64,000 bases of DNA from a virus. Its lineage: Duplodnaviria > Caudoviricetes. Every line of letters starts with the position of its first letter. The first letter of the stretch is position 1. Of the stretch, positions 2,818 to 9,324 are shown piece by piece. The stretch is from the IMG/VR virus record IMGVR_UViG_3300049846_001081; one strand, 5' to 3'. The position numbers and the translations under genes are program-made. The notes under the pieces were generated by a model that worked only from the letters and a program-made list of their open reading frames with translations, was not told the origin of the DNA and made no database searches.

Positions 2818-3318
2818 ATGTCTGAAAACTTTGAGAGCACTTACGAAAATTCTATTCCTAAAACATTTGGGGATACTGTGATTTATGGTGGAGAAGGAAC
2901 TGATACTATTTCCTTTGGATCTCCCCGTCCTGCACAAGATTTTATTTACGCAGCAGGATCAGTTCCCTTTGCTAGTTTTGGAAGTTCTTCCCCTGATACT
3001 ATTACCTTTAATTTGAAAATGCCCGAAGATACAAATAAAAATCATTTCTGGAAATATAACGAAGACAAAATCCTCAAGCAACTTGAAGAATATATCGCTG
3101 GAACTTATAGTCAGCACTATGTTGATCGTACTGGTGGTGGAACAGAACAAACACTAGACAAGATCAAACACAATCGCCGTGAAGGTTTCTGTGCTGGTAA
3201 TGTAACCAAATATATTGATCGTTACGACACTAAAGGAACTCCCCGTGCTGATCTATTCAAGGTTCTTCACTACACTATTCTTCTGATCAACCATCTTAAT
3301 CTTATTGAAAATAAGTGA
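2818..3318 (+). CDS. Conserved phage protein, DUF3310/SaV-like C-terminal domain
   Basis: HY...GFCAGNVTKYIDRY..K....DLFKVLHY pattern. Confidence 0.65.
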   Translation: MSENFESTYENSIPKTFGDTVIYGGEGTDTISFGSPRPAQDFIYAAGSVPFASFGSSSPDTITFNLKMPEDTNKNHFWKYNEDKILKQLEEYIAGTYSQHYVDRTGGGTEQTLDKIKHNRREGFCAGNVTKYIDRYDTKGTPRADLFKVLHYTILLINHLNLIENK

Positions 3319-3986
3319 TTATGAAACTTTCTGATAAAACTCTTTCTGTTCTGAAGAACTTTTCTTCCATTAATCAATCTATCCTTTTCAAGCAAGGAAG
3401 TAAACTTCGCACCATCTCTGTGATGAAGAATATTCTTGCAGAAGCGACGATTACTGAAGAGTTTCCAAAAGACTTTGGAATCTATGACTTGAATCAGTTT
3501 CTGAATGGTCTTGGTCTCCATCAAAGTCCAGAACTTGATTTTGCGAATGACGGATATGCGGTCATCCGCGAAGGTAAAATGCGGTCCAAGTATTTCTTTG
3601 CTGATCCAAATGTAATTATTACTCCTCCAGACAAAGCAATTAGTCTTCCTACTGAAGATGTTTGTTTTGAGTTGAGCACTGAACAATTAGACAAACTTCT
3701 GAAAGCCGCAGCAGTTTATCAACTTCCAGATATTTCTGCTGTTGGTGAAGCAGGTGTGGTAAAACTGGTTGTTCGTGATAAGAAGAATGATACTTCCAAT
3801 GATTTCTCCATTGTTGTTGGAGAAACTGAGTCTGAGTTTGTTTTCAACTTTAAGGTGGAAAACATTAAGATTCTTCCTGGGACCTATGAGGTAGTTGTTT
3901 CGCAAAAACTTTTGTCACGATTCCAGTCTAAGAACCACGACCTTTGCTATTATATTGCTCTGGAACCTGATTCTACTTTTGGATGA
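3315..3986 (+). CDS. gp45: Sliding clamp
   Basis: MKLSDKTLSVLKNFSSINQSI N-terminus, FGIYDLNQFL, YYIALEPDS C-terminus. Confidence 0.95.
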   Translation: MIMKLSDKTLSVLKNFSSINQSILFKQGSKLRTISVMKNILAEATITEEFPKDFGIYDLNQFLNGLGLHQSPELDFANDGYAVIREGKMRSKYFFADPNVIITPPDKAISLPTEDVCFELSTEQLDKLLKAAAVYQLPDISAVGEAGVVKLVVRDKKNDTSNDFSIVVGETESEFVFNFKVENIKILPGTYEVVVSQKLLSRFQSKNHDLCYYIALEPDSTFG

Positions 3987-4495
3987 ACATCTTTGTAACT
4001 TCTCCTTGGCCTGCTGAGAGTGCTATTTGTCTTCCTGACAAACACGTTGTCAAGATGCCATTAGAATGCTGTCAAATGCTTTCTATTGTGGCATCTGACA
4101 AATGGGGTCATAATTATGGTCCTTTATATAAAATTGATAACACTCCCTACAGAACTGAAAAGGGTGCATTTCGTAATCATCCCTGCACCAAATGGGCTAT
4201 GGAAAGTATCCATAATGCATATTGGTTGATTAAACATGGTTTAAACTTGTGTGATGAATATACCTTACGGTATAATAAAACTCATGCTTGCTACAAAACT
4301 TTAGTTGATGCTTATTATTTGTTTCCGAAAGGTAAAATAAACGAAGTAACTTCATTTGCTAGAGCAATGCCAGATGAGTATAAACTTGACACAAGCATTG
4401 ACACTTTTACTGCTTACAAGATGTATATCGCATCCAAACCTTGGGTTGCATCTAATTATCTTCGTATGCCAGAACGAAAACCTGATTGGGTATAA
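3983..4495 (+). CDS. Pyrimidine-dimer DNA glycosylase/EndoV-like protein
   Basis: MNIF...DKHVVKMPLECCQMLS and NHPCTKWA motifs. Confidence 0.75.
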   Translation: MNIFVTSPWPAESAICLPDKHVVKMPLECCQMLSIVASDKWGHNYGPLYKIDNTPYRTEKGAFRNHPCTKWAMESIHNAYWLIKHGLNLCDEYTLRYNKTHACYKTLVDAYYLFPKGKINEVTSFARAMPDEYKLDTSIDTFTAYKMYIASKPWVASNYLRMPERKPDWV

Positions 4496-4500
4496 ACATT

Positions 4501-5448
4501 ATGAGTCGTAATGAATTTTTGTGGGTTGAAAAATACCGACCCAAAACAATTGAAGATTGCATTCTCCCAGAGGGAACCAAAAAAACTTTTAAAGACTTCC
4601 TAGATAAAGGAGAAGTTCCCAACCTTCTTCTTGCTGGACCTGCTGGGTGCGGTAAGACAACAGTAGCAAAAGCACTATGTAATGAACTAGGAGTAGATGT
4701 ATATGTCATTAACGGATCCGACGAAGGTAGATTCCTTGATACTGTCCGAAACACTGCGAAGAACTTCGCTTCCACCGTATCGCTTTCGTCAACTGCTAAA
4801 CACAAAGTCATCATTATTGATGAGGCAGATAACACAACCAACGACGTTCAACTCCTCTTACGGGCGTCTATTGAGGAATTTAGTAACAATTGCAGATTCA
4901 TCTTCACCTGCAATTACAAAAACAAAATCATTGAACCTCTCCACTCCCGATGTGCCGTGGTGGACTTCAGTATCAAAGGCAAGGAAAGGACCAACCTTGC
5001 TGCAGGTTTTTATGGACGCTTGCAAGACATCTTACAAAAGGAGGGGATCAAATATGATTCAAAAGTTCTCGTTGAACTTATTAACAAACATTTCCCCGAT
5101 TGGAGACGAATCCTCAATGAGTGCCAACGCTATTCGTCGGGAGGAGAAATCAACACGGGCATTCTTGCAACTTTTAGTGATGTAAAAATCAATGATCTCG
5201 TTAGTCATCTTAAGGATAAAAACTTTCCTGAAGTCCGAAAGTGGGTGGTCTCCAACTTGGATAACGATGCTTCTCACCTTCTTCGCAGGGTTTATGACGC
5301 TGTTTATGATTGCTTACTTCCCCAATCTATCCCTGCTGCCGTTCTTGTTATTGCTAAGTATCAATACCAATGTGCGTTTGTGGCTGACCAAGAAATTAAC
5401 CTCTTAGCAGCATTAACAGAAATTATGGTGGAGTGTGAATTTAAATGA
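4501..5448 (+). CDS. gp44: Clamp loader large subunit
   Basis: LWVEKYRP, GPAGCGKTT, IIDEAD, SRC motifs; ATG at 4501. Confidence 0.95.
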   Translation: MSRNEFLWVEKYRPKTIEDCILPEGTKKTFKDFLDKGEVPNLLLAGPAGCGKTTVAKALCNELGVDVYVINGSDEGRFLDTVRNTAKNFASTVSLSSTAKHKVIIIDEADNTTNDVQLLLRASIEEFSNNCRFIFTCNYKNKIIEPLHSRCAVVDFSIKGKERTNLAAGFYGRLQDILQKEGIKYDSKVLVELINKHFPDWRRILNECQRYSSGGEINTGILATFSDVKINDLVSHLKDKNFPEVRKWVVSNLDNDASHLLRRVYDAVYDCLLPQSIPAAVLVIAKYQYQCAFVADQEINLLAALTEIMVECEFK

Positions 5449-6293
5449 AATCTCTAAAAACCCCTTTACGTTACCCTGGTGGTAAGTCTCGCGCCTGTGA
5501 AAAAATAGGACTTTATATTCCAGATCTTCGTAACTATGATGAGTTCCGTGAACCATTTCTTGGTGGTGGAAGTGTTGCGATTTATATCGCCAAAAAATAT
5601 CCTGGATTAAATATTTGGGTAAATGATTTATACGAACCGCTGGTAAATTTCTGGCAACAACTCCAGATGTTTGGCAATGATCTTAAAGATAAACTGGTAG
5701 AATTAAAGACAGCAAACAATACTCCCGATTTGGCAAGAGAACTTTTTCTTCACTCAAAGGGGCAGATCAATGACCAAAGTTTGCCAAGTATTTATCGTGC
5801 TGTGGCTTTCTATGTTGTTAATAAGTGTTCTTTTAGTGGTCTCACAGAGAGTTCATCATTTTCGCAACAGGCATCTAACTCCAACTTTTCAATGCGTGGT
5901 ATTGAAAAACTGCCTGCGTATTCTGCGTTGATTGCAAACTGGCGTATAACTAACTATTCCTACGACTATTTGTTGGATGGGAATATGGGTGCTTTTGTGT
6001 ATCTTGATCCTCCTTATGACATTAAGGATAATCTCTATGGGAATAAAGGATCAATGCATAAAGGATTTGATCACGATAAGTTTGCTACTGATTGCGCTTC
6101 TTGTTATATGCATCAACTGATAAGTTATAACTCTGATCAACTTGTAAAAGACCGTTTTATAGGTGAAAAATGGAAGACTGGTGAGTTTGATCTAACTTAT
6201 ACGATGCGTTCTGTTGGTGAATATATGCGGGAGCAAAAAGAAAGAAAAGAACTTCTGCTGTTTAATTATAATAAAGATTTGTTATGGAATTGA
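5445..6293 (+). CDS. dam: DNA adenine methyltransferase (Dam/D12 class)
   Basis: LRYPGGKS, EPFLGGGSV, YLDPPY motifs. Confidence 0.92.
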   Translation: MKSLKTPLRYPGGKSRACEKIGLYIPDLRNYDEFREPFLGGGSVAIYIAKKYPGLNIWVNDLYEPLVNFWQQLQMFGNDLKDKLVELKTANNTPDLARELFLHSKGQINDQSLPSIYRAVAFYVVNKCSFSGLTESSSFSQQASNSNFSMRGIEKLPAYSALIANWRITNYSYDYLLDGNMGAFVYLDPPYDIKDNLYGNKGSMHKGFDHDKFATDCASCYMHQLISYNSDQLVKDRFIGEKWKTGEFDLTYTMRSVGEYMREQKERKELLLFNYNKDLLWN

Positions 6294-6652
6294 AAGATTG
6301 GTTGAACTCAATTAATTTTACAAAGGAAGACCTATCGGAAAATACTAAGGATTATCCTCCATATATTATCAATCGTTGTCTTTCTGGTCATATTGACTGT
6401 ATTTTATTTGCAAATGAAATGAATATTCATCATCAACTTGATAAAGATATGCAATATTCATTTTATCTAAATAGTTTGAGGAAAAAGAAGAGGTTTTCTC
6501 CCTGGCTCCGAAAGGATAAGGTTACAGACTTAGAATGTGTTAAATCATACTATGGATATAGTAATGAAAAAGCATCTCAAGCACTGAAAATCCTGACAAA
6601 AGAACAACTTACTTTCATCAAAAAACGACTTGATATTGGAGGAAAAAAATGA
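6284..6652 (+). CDS. gp62: Clamp loader small subunit
   Basis: DWLNSIN, YPPYIINR, YYGYSNEKA; position between gp44 and regA. Confidence 0.93.
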   Translation: MELKDWLNSINFTKEDLSENTKDYPPYIINRCLSGHIDCILFANEMNIHHQLDKDMQYSFYLNSLRKKKRFSPWLRKDKVTDLECVKSYYGYSNEKASQALKILTKEQLTFIKKRLDIGGKK

Positions 6653-7086
6653 CTACTACGGTAGAACCTACTGTTGAATGGTCTCAGGACCAAATGGTAG
6701 AGGTAATTCTTAATGAACCTGATGATTTTCTGAAAGTTCGTGAAACTTTGACTCGCATTGGAGTTGCATCAAGAAAGGAGAAAAAACTCTATCAATCTTG
6801 CCATATTCTACACAAACAAGGTAGATATTTTATCGTTCACTTTAAAGAATTGTTTGCTCTTGACGGTAAACATGCAAACTTAACTGTAAACGATGTTCAA
6901 AGACGCAATCGTATTGTTCGTCTTCTTGCCGACTGGGGACTTATCACGGTTGTAAAAGAAAGTTCTGTTACTGATATTGCACCACTCAATCAAATTAAAG
7001 TTCTTGCTTATAAGGACAAAAATGATTGGATTCTTGAACAGAAATATAATATTGGTAAAAAAGGAAAAACAACAGACGGTGAATAA
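6649..7086 (+). CDS. regA: Translational repressor RegA
   Basis: DDFLKVRETLTRIGVAS, LYQSCHILHKQGRYFIVHFKELF. Confidence 0.97.
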   Translation: MTTTVEPTVEWSQDQMVEVILNEPDDFLKVRETLTRIGVASRKEKKLYQSCHILHKQGRYFIVHFKELFALDGKHANLTVNDVQRRNRIVRLLADWGLITVVKESSVTDIAPLNQIKVLAYKDKNDWILEQKYNIGKKGKTTDGE

Positions 7087-7135
7087 ATAGTATGTCGCTT
7101 TCGTGCGCGACACGCTACAACGGAATAACGCTATG
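7084..7135 (+). ncRNA. Candidate late-expressed structured RNA downstream of regA
   Basis: TAAATA late box, then GTCGC...GCGAC hairpin, no ORF, ends at a terminator. Confidence 0.4.
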
Positions 7136-7137
7136 AT

Positions 7138-7173
7138 GGAGGGCTTGACACCCTCCTTTTTTTCTGCTATAAT
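7138..7173 (+). promoter_or_regulatory. Terminator hairpin containing a consensus sigma70 promoter for the R-M cassette
   Basis: GGAGGG/CCCTCC stem + T7; TTGACA (7145-7150)-17 bp-TATAAT (7168-7173). Confidence 0.8.
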
Positions 7174-7205
7174 AAGAACGATTGATAAACCAACTACCTT
7201 TTACT

Positions 7206-7835
7206 ATGACCGCCCTCAAAGTCGGAACGATTGAGTATCTAAAAAATGTTCCTCTTTATGGTGATGAAATTGGATCATTTGCAGTAACAAGATATTCTGA
7301 TAAAGATATTTCTTTGTTTAAAGAAAACTTTGAGTCCTGGGTAAAACATCGCGAACTGTGTCTAAGCATTGGTGGTAGAGCACCTAATTTGTGTGATGCT
7401 TTTACTGAAGGTATGTACTGCCTTTATAGTGGTTCTGTTCGTTATGTAAAAGTAGATCGTAGAAAAGCAGAATATAAAACATTTGGACCAGAAAAACTAT
7501 CCAATGCATCTATTGATACTTATTCTGAAAAAAACAAAGAAGGGGAACAAATAAAGTCATCAATTATTTTAGATGATTGTACATCTTTTGGTCCAACAAG
7601 TAAACAAGATGCACTTTACTTTATGCATTTTTATCGTGACGGTAAAACTCTTGATGGATCTTTTGATTTGTATAGAATTGAAAATGATTTACTGTACTCT
7701 ACAGTTATTAAAAATGATGGAACTACCTTTGCCGAAAAACAAAAGACAGGGCAAAGACCTCATTTTTCTTTGATGAAAAAAGTAATCATCCCAAATAACA
7801 TTCAACCCATTGAAAAAAATGTCAAACTTTGGTAA
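7206..7835 (+). CDS. Type II restriction endonuclease, Bsp6I-like (predicted GCNGC)
   Basis: D...EQIKSS PD-(D/E)xK-type core, TSFGP motif, C-terminal FAEKQKTGQRPHFSL; overlaps a C5 MTase gene. Confidence 0.7.
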   Translation: MTALKVGTIEYLKNVPLYGDEIGSFAVTRYSDKDISLFKENFESWVKHRELCLSIGGRAPNLCDAFTEGMYCLYSGSVRYVKVDRRKAEYKTFGPEKLSNASIDTYSEKNKEGEQIKSSIILDDCTSFGPTSKQDALYFMHFYRDGKTLDGSFDLYRIENDLLYSTVIKNDGTTFAEKQKTGQRPHFSLMKKVIIPNNIQPIEKNVKLW

Positions 7836-8772
7836 TAAAACAATTGATCTTTTTGCTGGTATTGGTGGAGTTCGCATAGGATTTGAACGAGCAGGATTTC
7901 AAACGGTATTTGCCAATGATTTTGAACCAAAATGTAAATTGACGTATGATTTAAACTTTGATGAACCAAAATTATTGATAGAAGACATACGCAATATTTC
8001 TCCAGATACTCTTCCAGACTTTAATTTTTTATTGGGTGGATTCCCTTGCCAAGCATTTTCTATTGCTGGTCATCGTCAGGGATTTGATGATGAGAAAGAT
8101 CGTGGAAATTTATTTTTTTACATTGCAAAAATTCTTGAAACTAAAAAACCAGATGGTTTCTTTTTGGAGAATGTAAAAAATTTGTGTTCTCATGATAATG
8201 GTAGAACATTTCAAATTATTGCTTCTGTTTTAAATGATCTCGGTTATCACCTTAACTATAAGGTATTAAACACAATGGAGTATGGAAATGTCCCTCAAAA
8301 TAGGGAGCGTATTTACATTGTTGGATTTAAAGATGTTGAACGTGCAAATAAATTTAGGTTTCCAAATCCGAAACATTTGACAGTTACTGTGAAGGACTTG
8401 TTGGAACCAGTTGTTGATGCAAAATATTATTATGAAAATAAACCTTTGTATGAAAAAATTAAAAATGATGTAAATGATGAAAACAAAATATATCAATGGC
8501 GAAGAGTTTATGTTAGAGAAAATAAAAAAAATGTATGCCCAACTTTAACTGCAAATATGGGAACTGGTGGTCATAATGTTCCCATTATCAGAGATTCTGT
8601 AGGAATCCGCAAATTAACTCCATGGGAATGTTTGAGAATGCAAGGTTTTCCTGATACTTATAAATTACCAAAATTAAATAGTGATGGTCCACTATATACG
8701 CAAGCGGGTAATTCGGTAAGTGTTCCAGTTATAGAATCTATTGCTAGAGAAATTGCAAAAGTTTGTATGTGA
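7819..8772 (+). CDS. DNA cytosine-C5 methyltransferase, M.Bsp6I-like
   Basis: DLFAGIGG, GFPCQ, LENV, QNRERIY, TRD WRRVYVRENK..CPTLTANMGTGGHNVP, YTQAGNSV. Confidence 0.92.
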   Translation: MSNFGNKTIDLFAGIGGVRIGFERAGFQTVFANDFEPKCKLTYDLNFDEPKLLIEDIRNISPDTLPDFNFLLGGFPCQAFSIAGHRQGFDDEKDRGNLFFYIAKILETKKPDGFFLENVKNLCSHDNGRTFQIIASVLNDLGYHLNYKVLNTMEYGNVPQNRERIYIVGFKDVERANKFRFPNPKHLTVTVKDLLEPVVDAKYYYENKPLYEKIKNDVNDENKIYQWRRVYVRENKKNVCPTLTANMGTGGHNVPIIRDSVGIRKLTPWECLRMQGFPDTYKLPKLNSDGPLYTQAGNSVSVPVIESIAREIAKVCM

Positions 8773-8788
8773 AACCGAACAAAAATTT

Positions 8789-8813
8789 ACGGGGTTCATC
8801 ACCTCGTTTTTTT
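8789..8813 (+). terminator. Rho-independent terminator after the MTase
   Basis: ACGGGGT/ACCTCGT stem + T-run. Confidence 0.55.
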
Positions 8814-8889
8814 ATGATTGTTGTATAATTAGTATTGGATGCCTTCGGGGTCCACAAAACACAAACTCGCTTTAAAAGGAGCTACCATA

Positions 8890-9324
8890 ATGACTAACCT
8901 AATGAAATATCAGGCTGCGGATCTTCCTGCATTGTTGGAAAGAATTAATCGCAATACAATTGGAATGGATGAATACTTTGATCGTATTTTTAAAATTCAC
9001 GAAACAACTTCCAATTATCCACCATATAATCTTGTTCAAGTTAGTAATGTAGAATCCCGACTTGAAATTGCTCTTGCTGGATTTAAAAAGGGAGAAGTTT
9101 ATGTCTACACTCAAGACGGCAAACTTTTTATTGAAGGTCAGAAGGAGGATAAAGAAACAGACACCAGGTACGTTCACAAGGGTCTGGCTCAACGGTCGTT
9201 TACACGTTCCTGGACACTCTCTGATGACACGGAAGTTAGATCAGTTGATTTTGAGGATGGGCTTCTAACGGTCACTCTTGGAAGAATTGTTCCTGATCAC
9301 CATAAGAGGAAAGATTATCTCTAA
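8890..9324 (+). CDS. hsp20: Small heat shock protein
   Basis: NYPPYNL, LEIALAGF, HKGLAQRSF, VDFEDGLLTV; RBS AAGGAG upstream of ATG 8890. Confidence 0.95.
   Translation: MTNLMKYQAADLPALLERINRNTIGMDEYFDRIFKIHETTSNYPPYNLVQVSNVESRLEIALAGFKKGEVYVYTQDGKLFIEGQKEDKETDTRYVHKGLAQRSFTRSWTLSDDTEVRSVDFEDGLLTVTLGRIVPDHHKRKDYL

What the first reader, a model, noticed from the sequence alone, without database searches (positions are those of the whole stretch)
7138..8813. Complete Bsp6I-like type II restriction-modification system inserted in the replication core
Seen: an AT-rich two-gene cassette between regA and hsp20, with its own perfect TTGACA-17-TATAAT promoter and terminator. It encodes a C5 MTase and an overlapping ORF with SFGP and QKTGQRPHFSL motifs. 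Knowledge: both the MTase target-recognition segment (WRRVYVRENK..CPTLTANMGTGGHNVP) and these ORF motifs match my recollection of the Bsp6I (GCNGC) pair. Phages usually carry orphan MTases, not the cognate REase. Seen: GCAGC/GCTGC sites are abundant in this window, so the phage would depend on methylation. Inference: an early weapon to cut host DNA or co-infecting phage DNA, or a selfish element.
Basis: partly seen in the sequence, partly recalled or inferred. Interest (0 to 1): 0.75.

Follow-up and report, generated by a model that had tools for sequence, protein, structure and literature searches.

The report
Bsp6I-type restriction-modification cassette in a cyanophage
A freshwater T4-like cyanophage carries an intact two-gene restriction-modification system of the Bsp6I (probably GCNGC) type, wedged between two core replication-region genes. 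Virulent phages rarely carry such systems, so it probably lets the phage cut unmethylated host or rival DNA while its own DNA is methylated.

Summary
ORF R (7206-7835, 209 aa) passes Pfam RE_Bsp6I (38.4 bits, cut-off 25). Its AlphaFold model (pLDDT 95) finds Swiss-Prot R.Bsp6I first (E 3.8e-9). The nearest solved folds are the GCNGC-specific BisI-family enzymes NhoI and Eco15I (Z about 10) and PvuII (Z 7.8). The family-invariant residues E68, D104 and K117 (with Q115, a QxK form of (D/E)XK) are intact.

ORF M (7819-8772, 317 aa) overlaps R by 17 nt. It is 53% identical to M.Bsp6I, and about 84% identical across the target-recognition core to the methylase partner of a Bacillus plasmid Bsp6I-family enzyme.

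S-SM2 and Bellamy have an empty regA-hsp20 site holding one terminator/promoter element. Here two copies of that element flank the 1.6-kb cassette (PeSL-like).

No match to R was found in 50,697 deposited phage genomes or in PHROGs. However, R-M pairs of this clade recur, under purifying selection (dN/dS 0.07), at several different sites of uncultured cyanomyovirus contigs. GCNGC is not avoided (92 sites, observed/expected 1.02), so the phage must rely on methylation.

The role (host-DNA degradation, rival exclusion, or selfish spread) is inferred, not shown.

Earlier notes of this scan report other cyanophage-borne restriction genes on other DNA; I did not check them.

The parts
6649..7086 (+). 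regA (translational repressor), the upstream flank of the insertion site
   Evidence: Pfam PF01818, E 3.1e-44. About 80% nt identity to regA of S-SM2 and Bellamy.
7138..7173 (+). Left composite terminator/early-promoter element (PeSL-like). Stem-loop 7138-7156, T-run 7157-7163, -35 TTGACA 7145-7150 inside the loop, -10 TATAAT 7168-7173.
   Evidence: Promoter and terminator scan. It aligns with the single element in the empty site of S-SM2 and Bellamy. It is one of only four such composite elements in the 64-kb window.
7206..7835 (+). R gene: Bsp6I-family type IIP restriction endonuclease, 209 aa. Putative active site is E68, D104 and Q115-I-K117; R184 is also invariant.
   Evidence: Pfam RE_Bsp6I, 38.4 bits against cut-off 25. 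PADLOC REase_II. AF2 pLDDT 95.3. Foldseek top hit R.Bsp6I P43419, E 3.8e-9. NhoI Z 10.0 and PvuII Z 7.8. Invariant columns. dN/dS 0.066 against L003. Predicted homodimer.
7819..7835 (+). 17-nt overlap of the R stop and the M start (ATG 7819, TAA 7833-7835), suggesting translational coupling
   Evidence: Read from the sequence. The same junction is conserved in L003, L004, L005, L008 and L014.
7819..8772 (+). M gene: C5 cytosine DNA methyltransferase, 317 aa, M.Bsp6I-like
   Evidence: PF00145, E 6e-90. TIGR00675. Foldseek top hit M.Bsp6I P43420, 53% identity, TM 0.92. 54% overall and about 84% TRD-core identity to the methylase next to a Bsp6I-family REase on Bacillus plasmid pTM1. dN/dS 0.033.
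8789..8829 (+). Right composite terminator/promoter element. Stem-loop 8789-8807, T-run 8808-8814, TATAAT 8824-8829. It ends the cassette transcript and drives hsp20.
   Evidence: From the T-run onward it is collinear with the native hsp20 leader of S-SM2 and Bellamy.
8890..9324 (+). hsp20, the downstream flank of the insertion site
   Evidence: PF00011, E 2e-14. The start was set by alignment with S-SM2 and Bellamy.

Best explanation
The cassette is an intact, functional type IIP restriction-modification operon of the Bsp6I family, most probably GCNGC-specific.

How it is built and expressed:
- A consensus sigma-70 early promoter drives one transcript.
- That transcript encodes a homodimeric PD-(D/E)XK endonuclease (R), followed by a translationally coupled C5 methyltransferase (M).

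How it protects the phage:
- Virion DNA arrives already methylated from the previous cycle.
- After replication it is hemimethylated and M re-methylates it, so the phage's roughly 1.4 GCNGC sites per kb are protected.

What it attacks:
- Unmethylated DNA in the infected cell is cut. That includes the host chromosome and any co-infecting phage that lacks this methylation.
- The likely benefits are host shut-off with nucleotide recycling, and exclusion of rival phages.

How it got there:
- It entered the regA-hsp20 intergenic region by recombination at a composite terminator/promoter element (PeSL-like), leaving one copy on each side.

Shown here: family membership of both genes, intact catalytic residues, purifying selection, an empty site in relatives, flanking element copies, recurrence in cyanomyovirus contigs, and undepleted target sites. 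Inferred: GCNGC specificity, early timing, the protection logic and the biological role.
For: R:
- Pfam RE_Bsp6I, E 1.3e-9, above the cut-off, and PADLOC REase_II.
- The model (pLDDT 95.3) matches R.Bsp6I P43419 with E 3.8e-9 and TM 0.74 by hit.
- The best solved folds are NhoI (Z 10.0), Eco15I_Ntd (Z 9.7) and PvuII (Z 7.8).
- NhoI and Eco15I recognise GCNGC and use a D + QxK + helix-Glu active site (PMC11347163). That is the same arrangement as the family-invariant E68, D104 and K117 with Q115 found here.
- Homodimer model: ipSAE 0.79 against a best of 3 controls of 0.00. Runs agree in at least 93% of contacts and pLDDT is at least 89. In calibration the mark was reached by 20 of 30 true homodimers and 1 of 23 monomers. 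A pass may partly reflect likeness to solved PvuII-type dimers.

M:
- 53% identical to M.Bsp6I against 42% or less for other specificities.
- The TRD core matches 38 of 45 residues of the methylase partner of a Bacillus Bsp6I-family REase.

Selection: R dN/dS is 0.066 and M is 0.033 against the 96%-identical copy L003.

Insertion: S-SM2 and Bellamy have a 160-bp regA-hsp20 spacer with one element. The window has two copies flanking the cassette.

Recurrence:
- R-M pairs sit at 4 or more different contexts in cyanomyovirus-like contigs.
- The flanks of L014 and L016 match only Synechococcus myophages.

Target sites: 92 GCNGC sites, observed/expected 1.02.

Precedent: chlorovirus R-M degrades host DNA and marseillevirus R-M excludes rivals, with R transcribed before M (PMC7253447).

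Expression (weak evidence): a metatranscriptome run holds 100%-identical contigs over R, the R/M junction (7542-8017) and M.
Against: - No enzymatic or methylome data exist, so specificity rests on homology. R is only 23% identical to R.Bsp6I over the structural alignment, and BLASTP aligns only the C-terminal 83 residues to the plasmid homologue.
- R has an N-terminal extension (209 against 174 aa) of unknown effect.
- The RNA-library contigs over R and M are at low depth (3-4.5, against about 140 for hsp20) and could be DNA carry-over.
- Nothing here separates benefit to the phage from selfish maintenance.
- The host and its own GCNGC methylation state are unknown.
- The two flanking elements are similar but not identical, so the recombination route is a reconstruction.
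Confidence: 0.6

Rival explanations
1. The cassette is a selfish, addictive mobile element. It persists and hops between hyperplastic sites of cyanomyovirus genomes because a genome that loses M while R persists is cut, or because it eliminates cassette-free co-infecting siblings. On this reading it makes no contribution to host takeover.
For: It is found at several unrelated positions in related phage genomes. In metagenomes, cassette-less regA-hsp20 junction contigs and much higher depth on the flanks than on the cassette suggest a minority accessory element (weak, because the joint sides are short). GC content is slightly lower than the surroundings. R-M systems are known selfish elements (Kobayashi 2001, cited in PMC12801897).
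Against: Divergence is long (R 40-60% identity across copies) with purifying selection and a conserved compact operon within one viral group. That argues for sustained utility. Post-segregational killing logic fits poorly with a lytic cycle lasting one generation. This reading is not exclusive of the main explanation.
Confidence: 0.2
2. Only the methyltransferase matters. It protects phage DNA from host Bsp6I/Fnu4HI-like GCNGC restriction, and R is a decaying or silent passenger.
For: Orphan protective methylases are the rule in phages (PMC4176335). M is far better conserved than R (70-96% against 40-96% identity). Near-identical methylases occur as orphans fused to LexA in Patescibacteria.
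Against: R is full length with all family-invariant residues. Its dN/dS is 0.066 at unsaturated divergence. A confident fold and dimer are predicted. Every sampled phage copy of M (6 of 6 contexts) has R directly upstream.
Confidence: 0.1
3. R is a modification-dependent (BisI-like) enzyme that cuts methylated GCNGC, for example DNA of rivals or hosts carrying that mark, rather than unmethylated DNA.
For: The nearest solved structures are the BisI-family enzymes NhoI and Eco15I (Z 9.7-10.0). They share the QxK active-site variant.
Against: R passes the Bsp6I Pfam model and matches R.Bsp6I far better (E 3.8e-9) than NhoI or Eco15I (Foldseek E 0.07-0.2). A methyl-dependent GCNGC nuclease co-transcribed with a GCNGC methylase would destroy the phage's own 92 sites per 64 kb. 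The position that may correspond to the BisI (H/R)(V/I/T/M) methyl-binding pair reads H/R-F in this family; that correspondence was not verified.
Confidence: 0.03

Closest known systems
Bsp6I restriction-modification system of Bacillus sp. RFL6 (R.Bsp6I P43419, M.Bsp6I P43420; GC^NGC; isoschizomer of Fnu4HI), and the Bsp6I-family pair on Bacillus altitudinis plasmid pTM1
   Same: Both genes belong to the same families and share the R-then-M orientation. M is 53-54% identical overall, with a near-identical target-recognition core. R has the same Pfam family and predicted fold.
   Different: R is only about 23% identical and 35 residues longer at the N-terminus. In the phage clade R and M overlap by 17 nt, whereas pTM1 has a gap of about 100 nt. 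The cassette is carried by a virulent-type T4-like cyanophage under an early sigma-70 promoter, not by a plasmid. Specificity is untested.
Chlorovirus (e.g. PBCV-1, NC-1A) and marseillevirus virus-encoded type II R-M systems
   Same: A lytic DNA virus carries a complete R-M pair of prokaryotic origin, and its own genome is methylated at sites that are not depleted. The proposed uses are host DNA degradation and exclusion of competing viruses. In melbournevirus R is expressed before M (PMC7253447).
   Different: The hosts are eukaryotic algae and amoebae, and the enzyme families are unrelated. Virion packaging of the REase is known for chloroviruses and unknown here.
PeSL (promoter-early stem-loop) cassettes of T4-like phages (Arbiol et al. 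2010, PMC2839356; Comeau et al. 2014, PMC4122927)
   Same: A composite terminator/early-promoter motif lies on both sides of an indel that distinguishes related T4-like genomes, with a single copy at the empty site.
   Different: PeSLs were described in coliphage, Yersinia-phage and vibriophage pairs, and were not shown here for cyanophages beyond this locus. The two copies are diverged, and recombination itself was not observed. The insertion lies between core genes rather than in a classical hyperplastic region.
BisI family (NhoI, Eco15I) and PvuII
   Same: PvuII-like PD-(D/E)XK fold, N-terminal-helix dimerisation, D + QxK + helix-Glu active site and a GCNGC target.
   Different: BisI enzymes need methylated cytosines and have no partner methylase. 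No sequence-level similarity is detectable.

Membership tests
Bsp6I-family type IIP restriction endonuclease (Pfam PF09504) | Matches the family HMM above the curated gathering score | tested here: met
   38.4 bits against cut-off 25, E 1.3e-9, covering profile positions 18-169 of 179. PADLOC REase_II, E 4.4e-15.
Bsp6I-family type IIP restriction endonuclease (Pfam PF09504) | Fold like the biochemically characterised R.Bsp6I, in the PvuII-like PD-(D/E)XK class | tested here: met
   Foldseek: P43419 with E 3.8e-9, probability 1.00, TM 0.74 by hit, and the next hit at E 8.5e-3. VIA-align: NhoI Z 10.0 (rmsd 4.4, 126 aligned) and PvuII Z 7.8 (rmsd 5.0, 124 aligned).
Bsp6I-family type IIP restriction endonuclease (Pfam PF09504) | Catalytic residues conserved (helix Glu, Asp of the 'PD' motif, Q/E-x-K) | tested here: met
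   E68, D104 and K117 are invariant in 69 family members, and Q115 is conserved at 90% or more in the phage clade. Their roles are assigned by analogy to NhoI/Eco15I (PMC11347163). The Bsp6I mutagenesis paper (PMC548357) could not be read.
Bsp6I-family type IIP restriction endonuclease (Pfam PF09504) | Homodimer, as expected for a palindromic cutter | tested here: met
   Prediction only: ipSAE 0.79 against a best of 3 controls of 0.00, with a symmetric interface through helix 32-58 and residues 60-69.
Bsp6I-family type IIP restriction endonuclease (Pfam PF09504) | Cleaves GC^NGC and is blocked by cognate methylation | not testable with these tools
   Needs enzyme assays.
M.Bsp6I-like C5 cytosine methyltransferase (PF00145) | C5-MTase motifs I (FxGxG), IV (PCQ), VI (ENV), VIII (QxRxR) and X (GNSV) | tested here: met
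   PF00145 E 6e-90 and TIGR00675 E 2.5e-99. DLFAGIGG, GFPCQAFS, LENVKN, QNRERIY and AGNSVSVP are visible in the translation.
M.Bsp6I-like C5 cytosine methyltransferase (PF00145) | Target-recognition domain like that of a GCNGC methylase | tested here: met
   Best Swiss-Prot match is M.Bsp6I, at 53% against 42% or less for the others. The TRD core is 38 of 45 identical to the methylase adjacent to a Bsp6I-family REase on pTM1. The methylated base and site were not measured.
Type II R-M operon | R and M adjacent, co-oriented, and co-inherited across relatives | tested here: met
   17-nt overlap here. The same pairing is seen in L003-L017.
PeSL-bounded mobile cassette of T4-like phages | Composite stem-loop terminator and early promoter at both borders of an indel, with a single copy at the empty site of a relative | tested here: met
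   The definition comes from PMC4122927.
PeSL-bounded mobile cassette of T4-like phages | The indel was generated by recombination between PeSLs | not testable with these tools
   This is an inference from anatomy. Copies elsewhere (L005, L007) have a similar element downstream only.
BisI family of modification-dependent REases | (H/R)(V/I/T/M) methyl-binding motif and sequence membership | tested here: inconclusive
   There is structural similarity only. A profile of 69 sequences finds no PDB chain of this family. The candidate position reads H/R-F.

The most novel reading that the evidence does not exclude
A lineage of T4-like cyanomyoviruses, which lack the hydroxymethyl-cytosine of T4, uses a dedicated R-M pair to tell self from non-self. 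Early-made R.Bsp6I-like enzyme would shred the GC-rich, GCNGC-dense host chromosome and unmethylated rival phages, while pre-methylated phage DNA is spared. This would be functionally equivalent to T4's hmC plus EndoII/EndoIV, and to chlorovirus R-M. The cassette would be a long-resident, selected weapon that moves between genome sites through terminator/promoter elements.
Probability: 0.3. Interest if true: 0.75.

Novelty: new member of a known kind. Interest (0 to 1): 0.55.

Why it matters
Complete R-M systems are almost absent from virulent phages: 9 in 831 genomes (PMC4176335). This REase family has no PHROG, and tblastn found no match in 50,697 deposited phage genomes. Even so, metagenomes show a conserved, selected clade of it in cyanomyoviruses.

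If the pair is active, it gives a concrete and testable mechanism for two things in abundant aquatic phages: how cyanophages with ordinary cytosine discriminate their own DNA from host DNA during host-genome degradation, and how phages exclude one another.

It also predicts a GCNGC 5mC methylome. That mark would expose these phages to BisI-type methyl-dependent host nucleases.

The enzyme pair is itself a possible new Fnu4HI/Bsp6I isoschizomer source.

Tried and rejected
- Literature: the Bsp6I/PvuII mutagenesis paper (PMC548357) is not held, so catalytic residues were assigned from conservation and the BisI-family structure paper. Searches for a described cyanophage R-M with a REase found only methylase discussions.
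- Whole genome: none is held for this window, so genome-wide site statistics and a search for other copies were not possible.
- Sequence searches against solved structures: single-sequence phmmer and a 69-sequence profile both gave nothing meaningful. Foldseek against PDB gave only weak E-values (0.07 or worse); the VIA-align second look was needed.
- Related-loci searches: the broad alignments A2 and A5 failed for lack of a conserved peptide stretch. The single protein found nothing in IMG/VR. The phage-clade alignment found one IMG/VR contig (L018), so abundance in IMG/VR could not be measured by this route.
- R-first order as a possible phage adaptation: rejected, because the Bacillus plasmid pTM1 pair is also R then M. 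Three other cellular-like contexts vary: RHH-M-R, R with Vsr and a convergent M, and R next to RE_NgoFVII_C.
- dN/dS for distant pairs is saturated (dS above 1) and was not used.
- Read laying: parts of M without RNA-contig cover, and the low cassette depth in runs X4 and X5, prove nothing by themselves. The empty-site joints have short sides (26-51 nt) at 90% likeness.
- Rfam: no RNA family within the cassette.
Full report
**Setting.** The window is part of a T4-like cyanomyovirus. It encodes gp62, regA, hsp20 and gp43, and its nearest deposited relatives are Synechococcus phages S-SM2, Bellamy and SynMITS9220M01, at only about 76-80% nucleotide identity. Near-identical DNA is held by freshwater metagenome runs from several studies. 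No whole genome is held for the window.

**Observation.**
- A 12-of-12 sigma-70 promoter (TTGACA 7145-7150, 17 nt, TATAAT 7168-7173) sits inside and just after a G+C-rich stem-loop with a T-run (7138-7163).
- ORF R runs from 7206 to 7835 (209 aa).
- ORF M runs from 7819 to 8772 (317 aa) and overlaps R by 17 nt.
- A second stem-loop with a T-run (8789-8814) follows, and is itself followed by TATAAT at 8824-8829.
- The cassette is mildly AT-rich: 32.1% GC against 37.3%, at the 11th percentile of same-size windows.
- GCNGC occurs 92 times in the window (68 GCWGC and 24 GCSGC), with observed/expected 1.02, so it is neither depleted nor enriched.

**What R is.**
- R passes the Pfam RE_Bsp6I model (38.4 bits, cut-off 25) and a PADLOC type II REase model.
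- It has no PHROG family and no tblastn match in 50,697 deposited phage genomes.
- The family is small: 193 clusters at 50% identity among 1.84 billion representatives.
- In an alignment of 69 members, E68, D104, K117 and R184 are invariant. The consensus around them is S-F-D-x-Y ... Q-I-K.
- An AlphaFold model (pLDDT 95.3) finds Swiss-Prot R.Bsp6I as its top and only strong hit (E 3.8e-9, TM 0.74 by hit).
- Among solved structures the best are NhoI (Z 10.0), Eco15I N-domain (Z 9.7), PvuII (Z 7.8) and DpnI (Z 6.7), all PvuII-class PD-(D/E)XK restriction enzymes.
- NhoI and Eco15I recognise GCNGC. Their active sites are Asp plus QVK/QIK plus a helix Glu (PMC11347163). That is the same variant as D104, Q115-I-K117 and E68 here.
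- A homodimer is predicted with ipSAE 0.79 against 0.00 for the best of three controls. Runs agree in at least 93% of contacts and pLDDT is at least 89. In calibration 20 of 30 true homodimers and 1 of 23 monomers reached the mark. The interface runs through the long N-terminal helix, as in PvuII-type enzymes, and the pass may partly reflect that likeness.
- Sequence-only searches against PDB found nothing.

**What M is.**
- M is a canonical C5 methyltransferase (PF00145, E 6e-90; TIGR00675) with all the usual motifs.
- Its model's best Swiss-Prot match is M.Bsp6I: 53% identity over 316 columns, TM 0.92. The next best matches are 42% or lower and have other specificities.
- A 7.2-kb Bacillus altitudinis plasmid carries an NCBI-annotated Bsp6I-family REase (174 aa) followed by a 315-aa methylase, the same lengths as the Swiss-Prot Bsp6I pair.
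- The phage M is 54% identical to that methylase overall.
- This is the strongest computational evidence available here that M methylates the Bsp6I site. The site itself (GCNGC) is taken from the literature on Bsp6I and Fnu4HI, not measured.

**Is R alive?**
- The closest copy, L003, comes from a different run, sits at the same regA-hsp20 site and is 96% identical at the amino-acid level. Against it, dN/dS is 0.066 for R (dS 0.31) and 0.033 for M. More distant pairs are saturated and were not used.
- All family-invariant residues are present.
- A metatranscriptome run contains 100%-identical contigs over R (7212-7392), across the R/M junction (7542-8017) and over M (8342-8541). Their depth is 3-4.5, against about 10 for regA and about 140 for hsp20. 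This is compatible with a low-abundance R-M transcript, but DNA carry-over cannot be excluded.

**How it got there.**
- S-SM2 and Bellamy have regA and hsp20 about 160 bp apart, with a single stem-loop/T-run/-10 element between them.
- In the alignment, the window's left junction follows these relatives through the stem-loop and -10 box and then diverges. The right junction picks up at a second stem-loop and continues collinearly into the hsp20 leader.
- The cassette therefore lies between two diverged copies of one composite terminator/promoter.
- This is the anatomy of the PeSL-bounded indels that Arbiol, Comeau and Krisch proposed as the vehicle of modular shuffling in T4-like phages (PMC2839356, PMC4122927).
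- Only four such composite elements exist on this strand of the 64-kb window, and two of them flank the cassette.
- Metagenome contigs that join regA directly to hsp20 hint that empty-site siblings coexist with carriers. The joint sides are short, so this is weak.

**It is not a one-off.**
- Eighteen R homologues (39-96% identity) were found among 5.8 billion clustered proteins.
- More than a hundred M homologues at 68-96% identity were listed.
- Every M context sampled has an RE_Bsp6I gene directly upstream, usually with the same 17-nt overlap and a conserved junction.
- The contexts differ. One is regA-hsp20 (window, L003). Another is after a CP12 gene (L004-L007). A third is after a DEAD-box helicase-like gene and before a CAAD gene (L008-L011). 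Three others lie among small ORFs (L012-L017), one of them on a 252-kb contig.
- Neighbouring genes carry cyanomyovirus-typical Pfam families such as Kyano_Gp96 and CP12. The flanks of L014 and L016 match only Synechococcus myophages.
- So a Bsp6I-type R-M clade has been resident and mobile within cyanomyoviruses long enough for R to diverge to about 40% identity while staying paired with M.
- Cellular-like contexts are heterogeneous: RHH-M-R in a Methanobacteriaceae MAG (L022), R with Vsr and a convergent M (L023, L024), and R beside an NgoFVII-like fragment (L025). The R-first order is shared with the Bacillus plasmid, so it is not a phage invention. The tight overlap was seen only in the phage clade, in this small sample.

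**Mechanism proposed.**
- The consensus sigma-70 promoter should be read by unmodified host RNA polymerase at the start of infection, giving one R-M mRNA that ends at the right-hand terminator. This timing is inferred.
- Incoming phage DNA carries the methylation laid down in the previous host, so making R first is harmless to the phage.
- Replication produces hemimethylated sites that M completes.
- Unmethylated DNA (the host chromosome and co-infecting phages without this methylase) is cut at GCNGC, a site that should be much denser in GC-rich picocyanobacterial DNA than in the 37%-GC phage.
- The precedents are chloroviruses, where virus R-M degrades host DNA, and marseilleviruses, where it excludes rival viruses and R is transcribed before M (PMC7253447).
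- A selfish-element reading is not excluded and may coexist with this one.
- A 'methylase-only' reading is disfavoured by the selection on R.
- A methyl-dependent reading of R is disfavoured by its family assignment and by self-incompatibility with M.

**Novelty and score.**
- Both proteins are clear members of known families, and virus-borne R-M systems are known, so this is a new member of a known kind.
- The unusual aspects are the carrier (a virulent-type T4-like cyanophage, inserted between core genes of the replication region), the rarity of complete R-M systems in such phages (PMC4176335), the absence of this REase family from deposited phage genomes and PHROGs, and its recurrence under selection in uncultured cyanomyoviruses.
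- Earlier notes of this scan report other cyanophage-borne restriction genes on other DNA: a PvuII-like orphan, a GTAC-type pair, and another pair between repeated elements. I did not check them, but they suggest the theme is broader than the literature indicates.
- Interest is 0.55.

Noticed in passing
window 1-64000: The tetranucleotides GGCC (observed/expected 0.28) and CCGG (0.18) are strongly depleted. GATC (0.67) and GCGC (0.69) are moderately depleted, while GCNGC is not (1.02). This pattern fits avoidance of host type II sites for which the phage has no protective methylase.
   Followed up: partly
window 5445-6293: A Dam-like D12-class N6-adenine methyltransferase (PF02086, E 1.5e-29) lies between gp44 and gp62. 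Bellamy and L003 have a methylase at the same place, whereas S-SM2 has an unrelated gene there. The phage therefore carries two DNA methylases within 3 kb.
   Followed up: partly
window 7090-7135: The spacer after the regA stop contains a hairpin (about 7088-7117) and adjoining sequence that are almost identical in this phage, S-SM2 and Bellamy, although coding regions are only 76-80% identical. RNA folding of 7084-7180 gives a z-score of -2.7. It may be a conserved regulatory RNA or a regA-related operator.
   Followed up: partly
window 8833-8895: The hsp20 leader gives a sub-threshold match to the ROSE_3 RNA thermometer family (24.3 bits, gathering score 43, E 0.032). In a metatranscriptome run, hsp20 contigs have about 140x depth against about 10x for regA.
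   Followed up: no
L019-L021 (Patescibacteria contigs), gene at 3001-4590: Methylases about 70% identical to the phage M are fused to an N-terminal LexA repressor (LexA_DNA_bind plus Peptidase_S24) in many Patescibacteria (Nomurabacteria and others). They have no Bsp6I-family REase nearby, so these are widespread SOS-linked orphan methylase fusions.
   Followed up: partly
L025:184-1258: In one cellular-type contig a Bsp6I-family REase gene sits directly after a fragment matching RE_NgoFVII_C (NgoFVII cuts GCSGC) and before an HTH_3 gene. This suggests exchange or decay among GCNGC-related systems.
   Followed up: no
L012:6667-7182, L014:5638-6177, L009:12487-13011: HNH_3 or NUMOD3 homing-endonuclease-like genes lie 1.7-3 kb downstream of the R-M cassette, on the opposite strand, in several carrier contigs. 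No such gene lies next to the cassette in the window.
   Followed up: no
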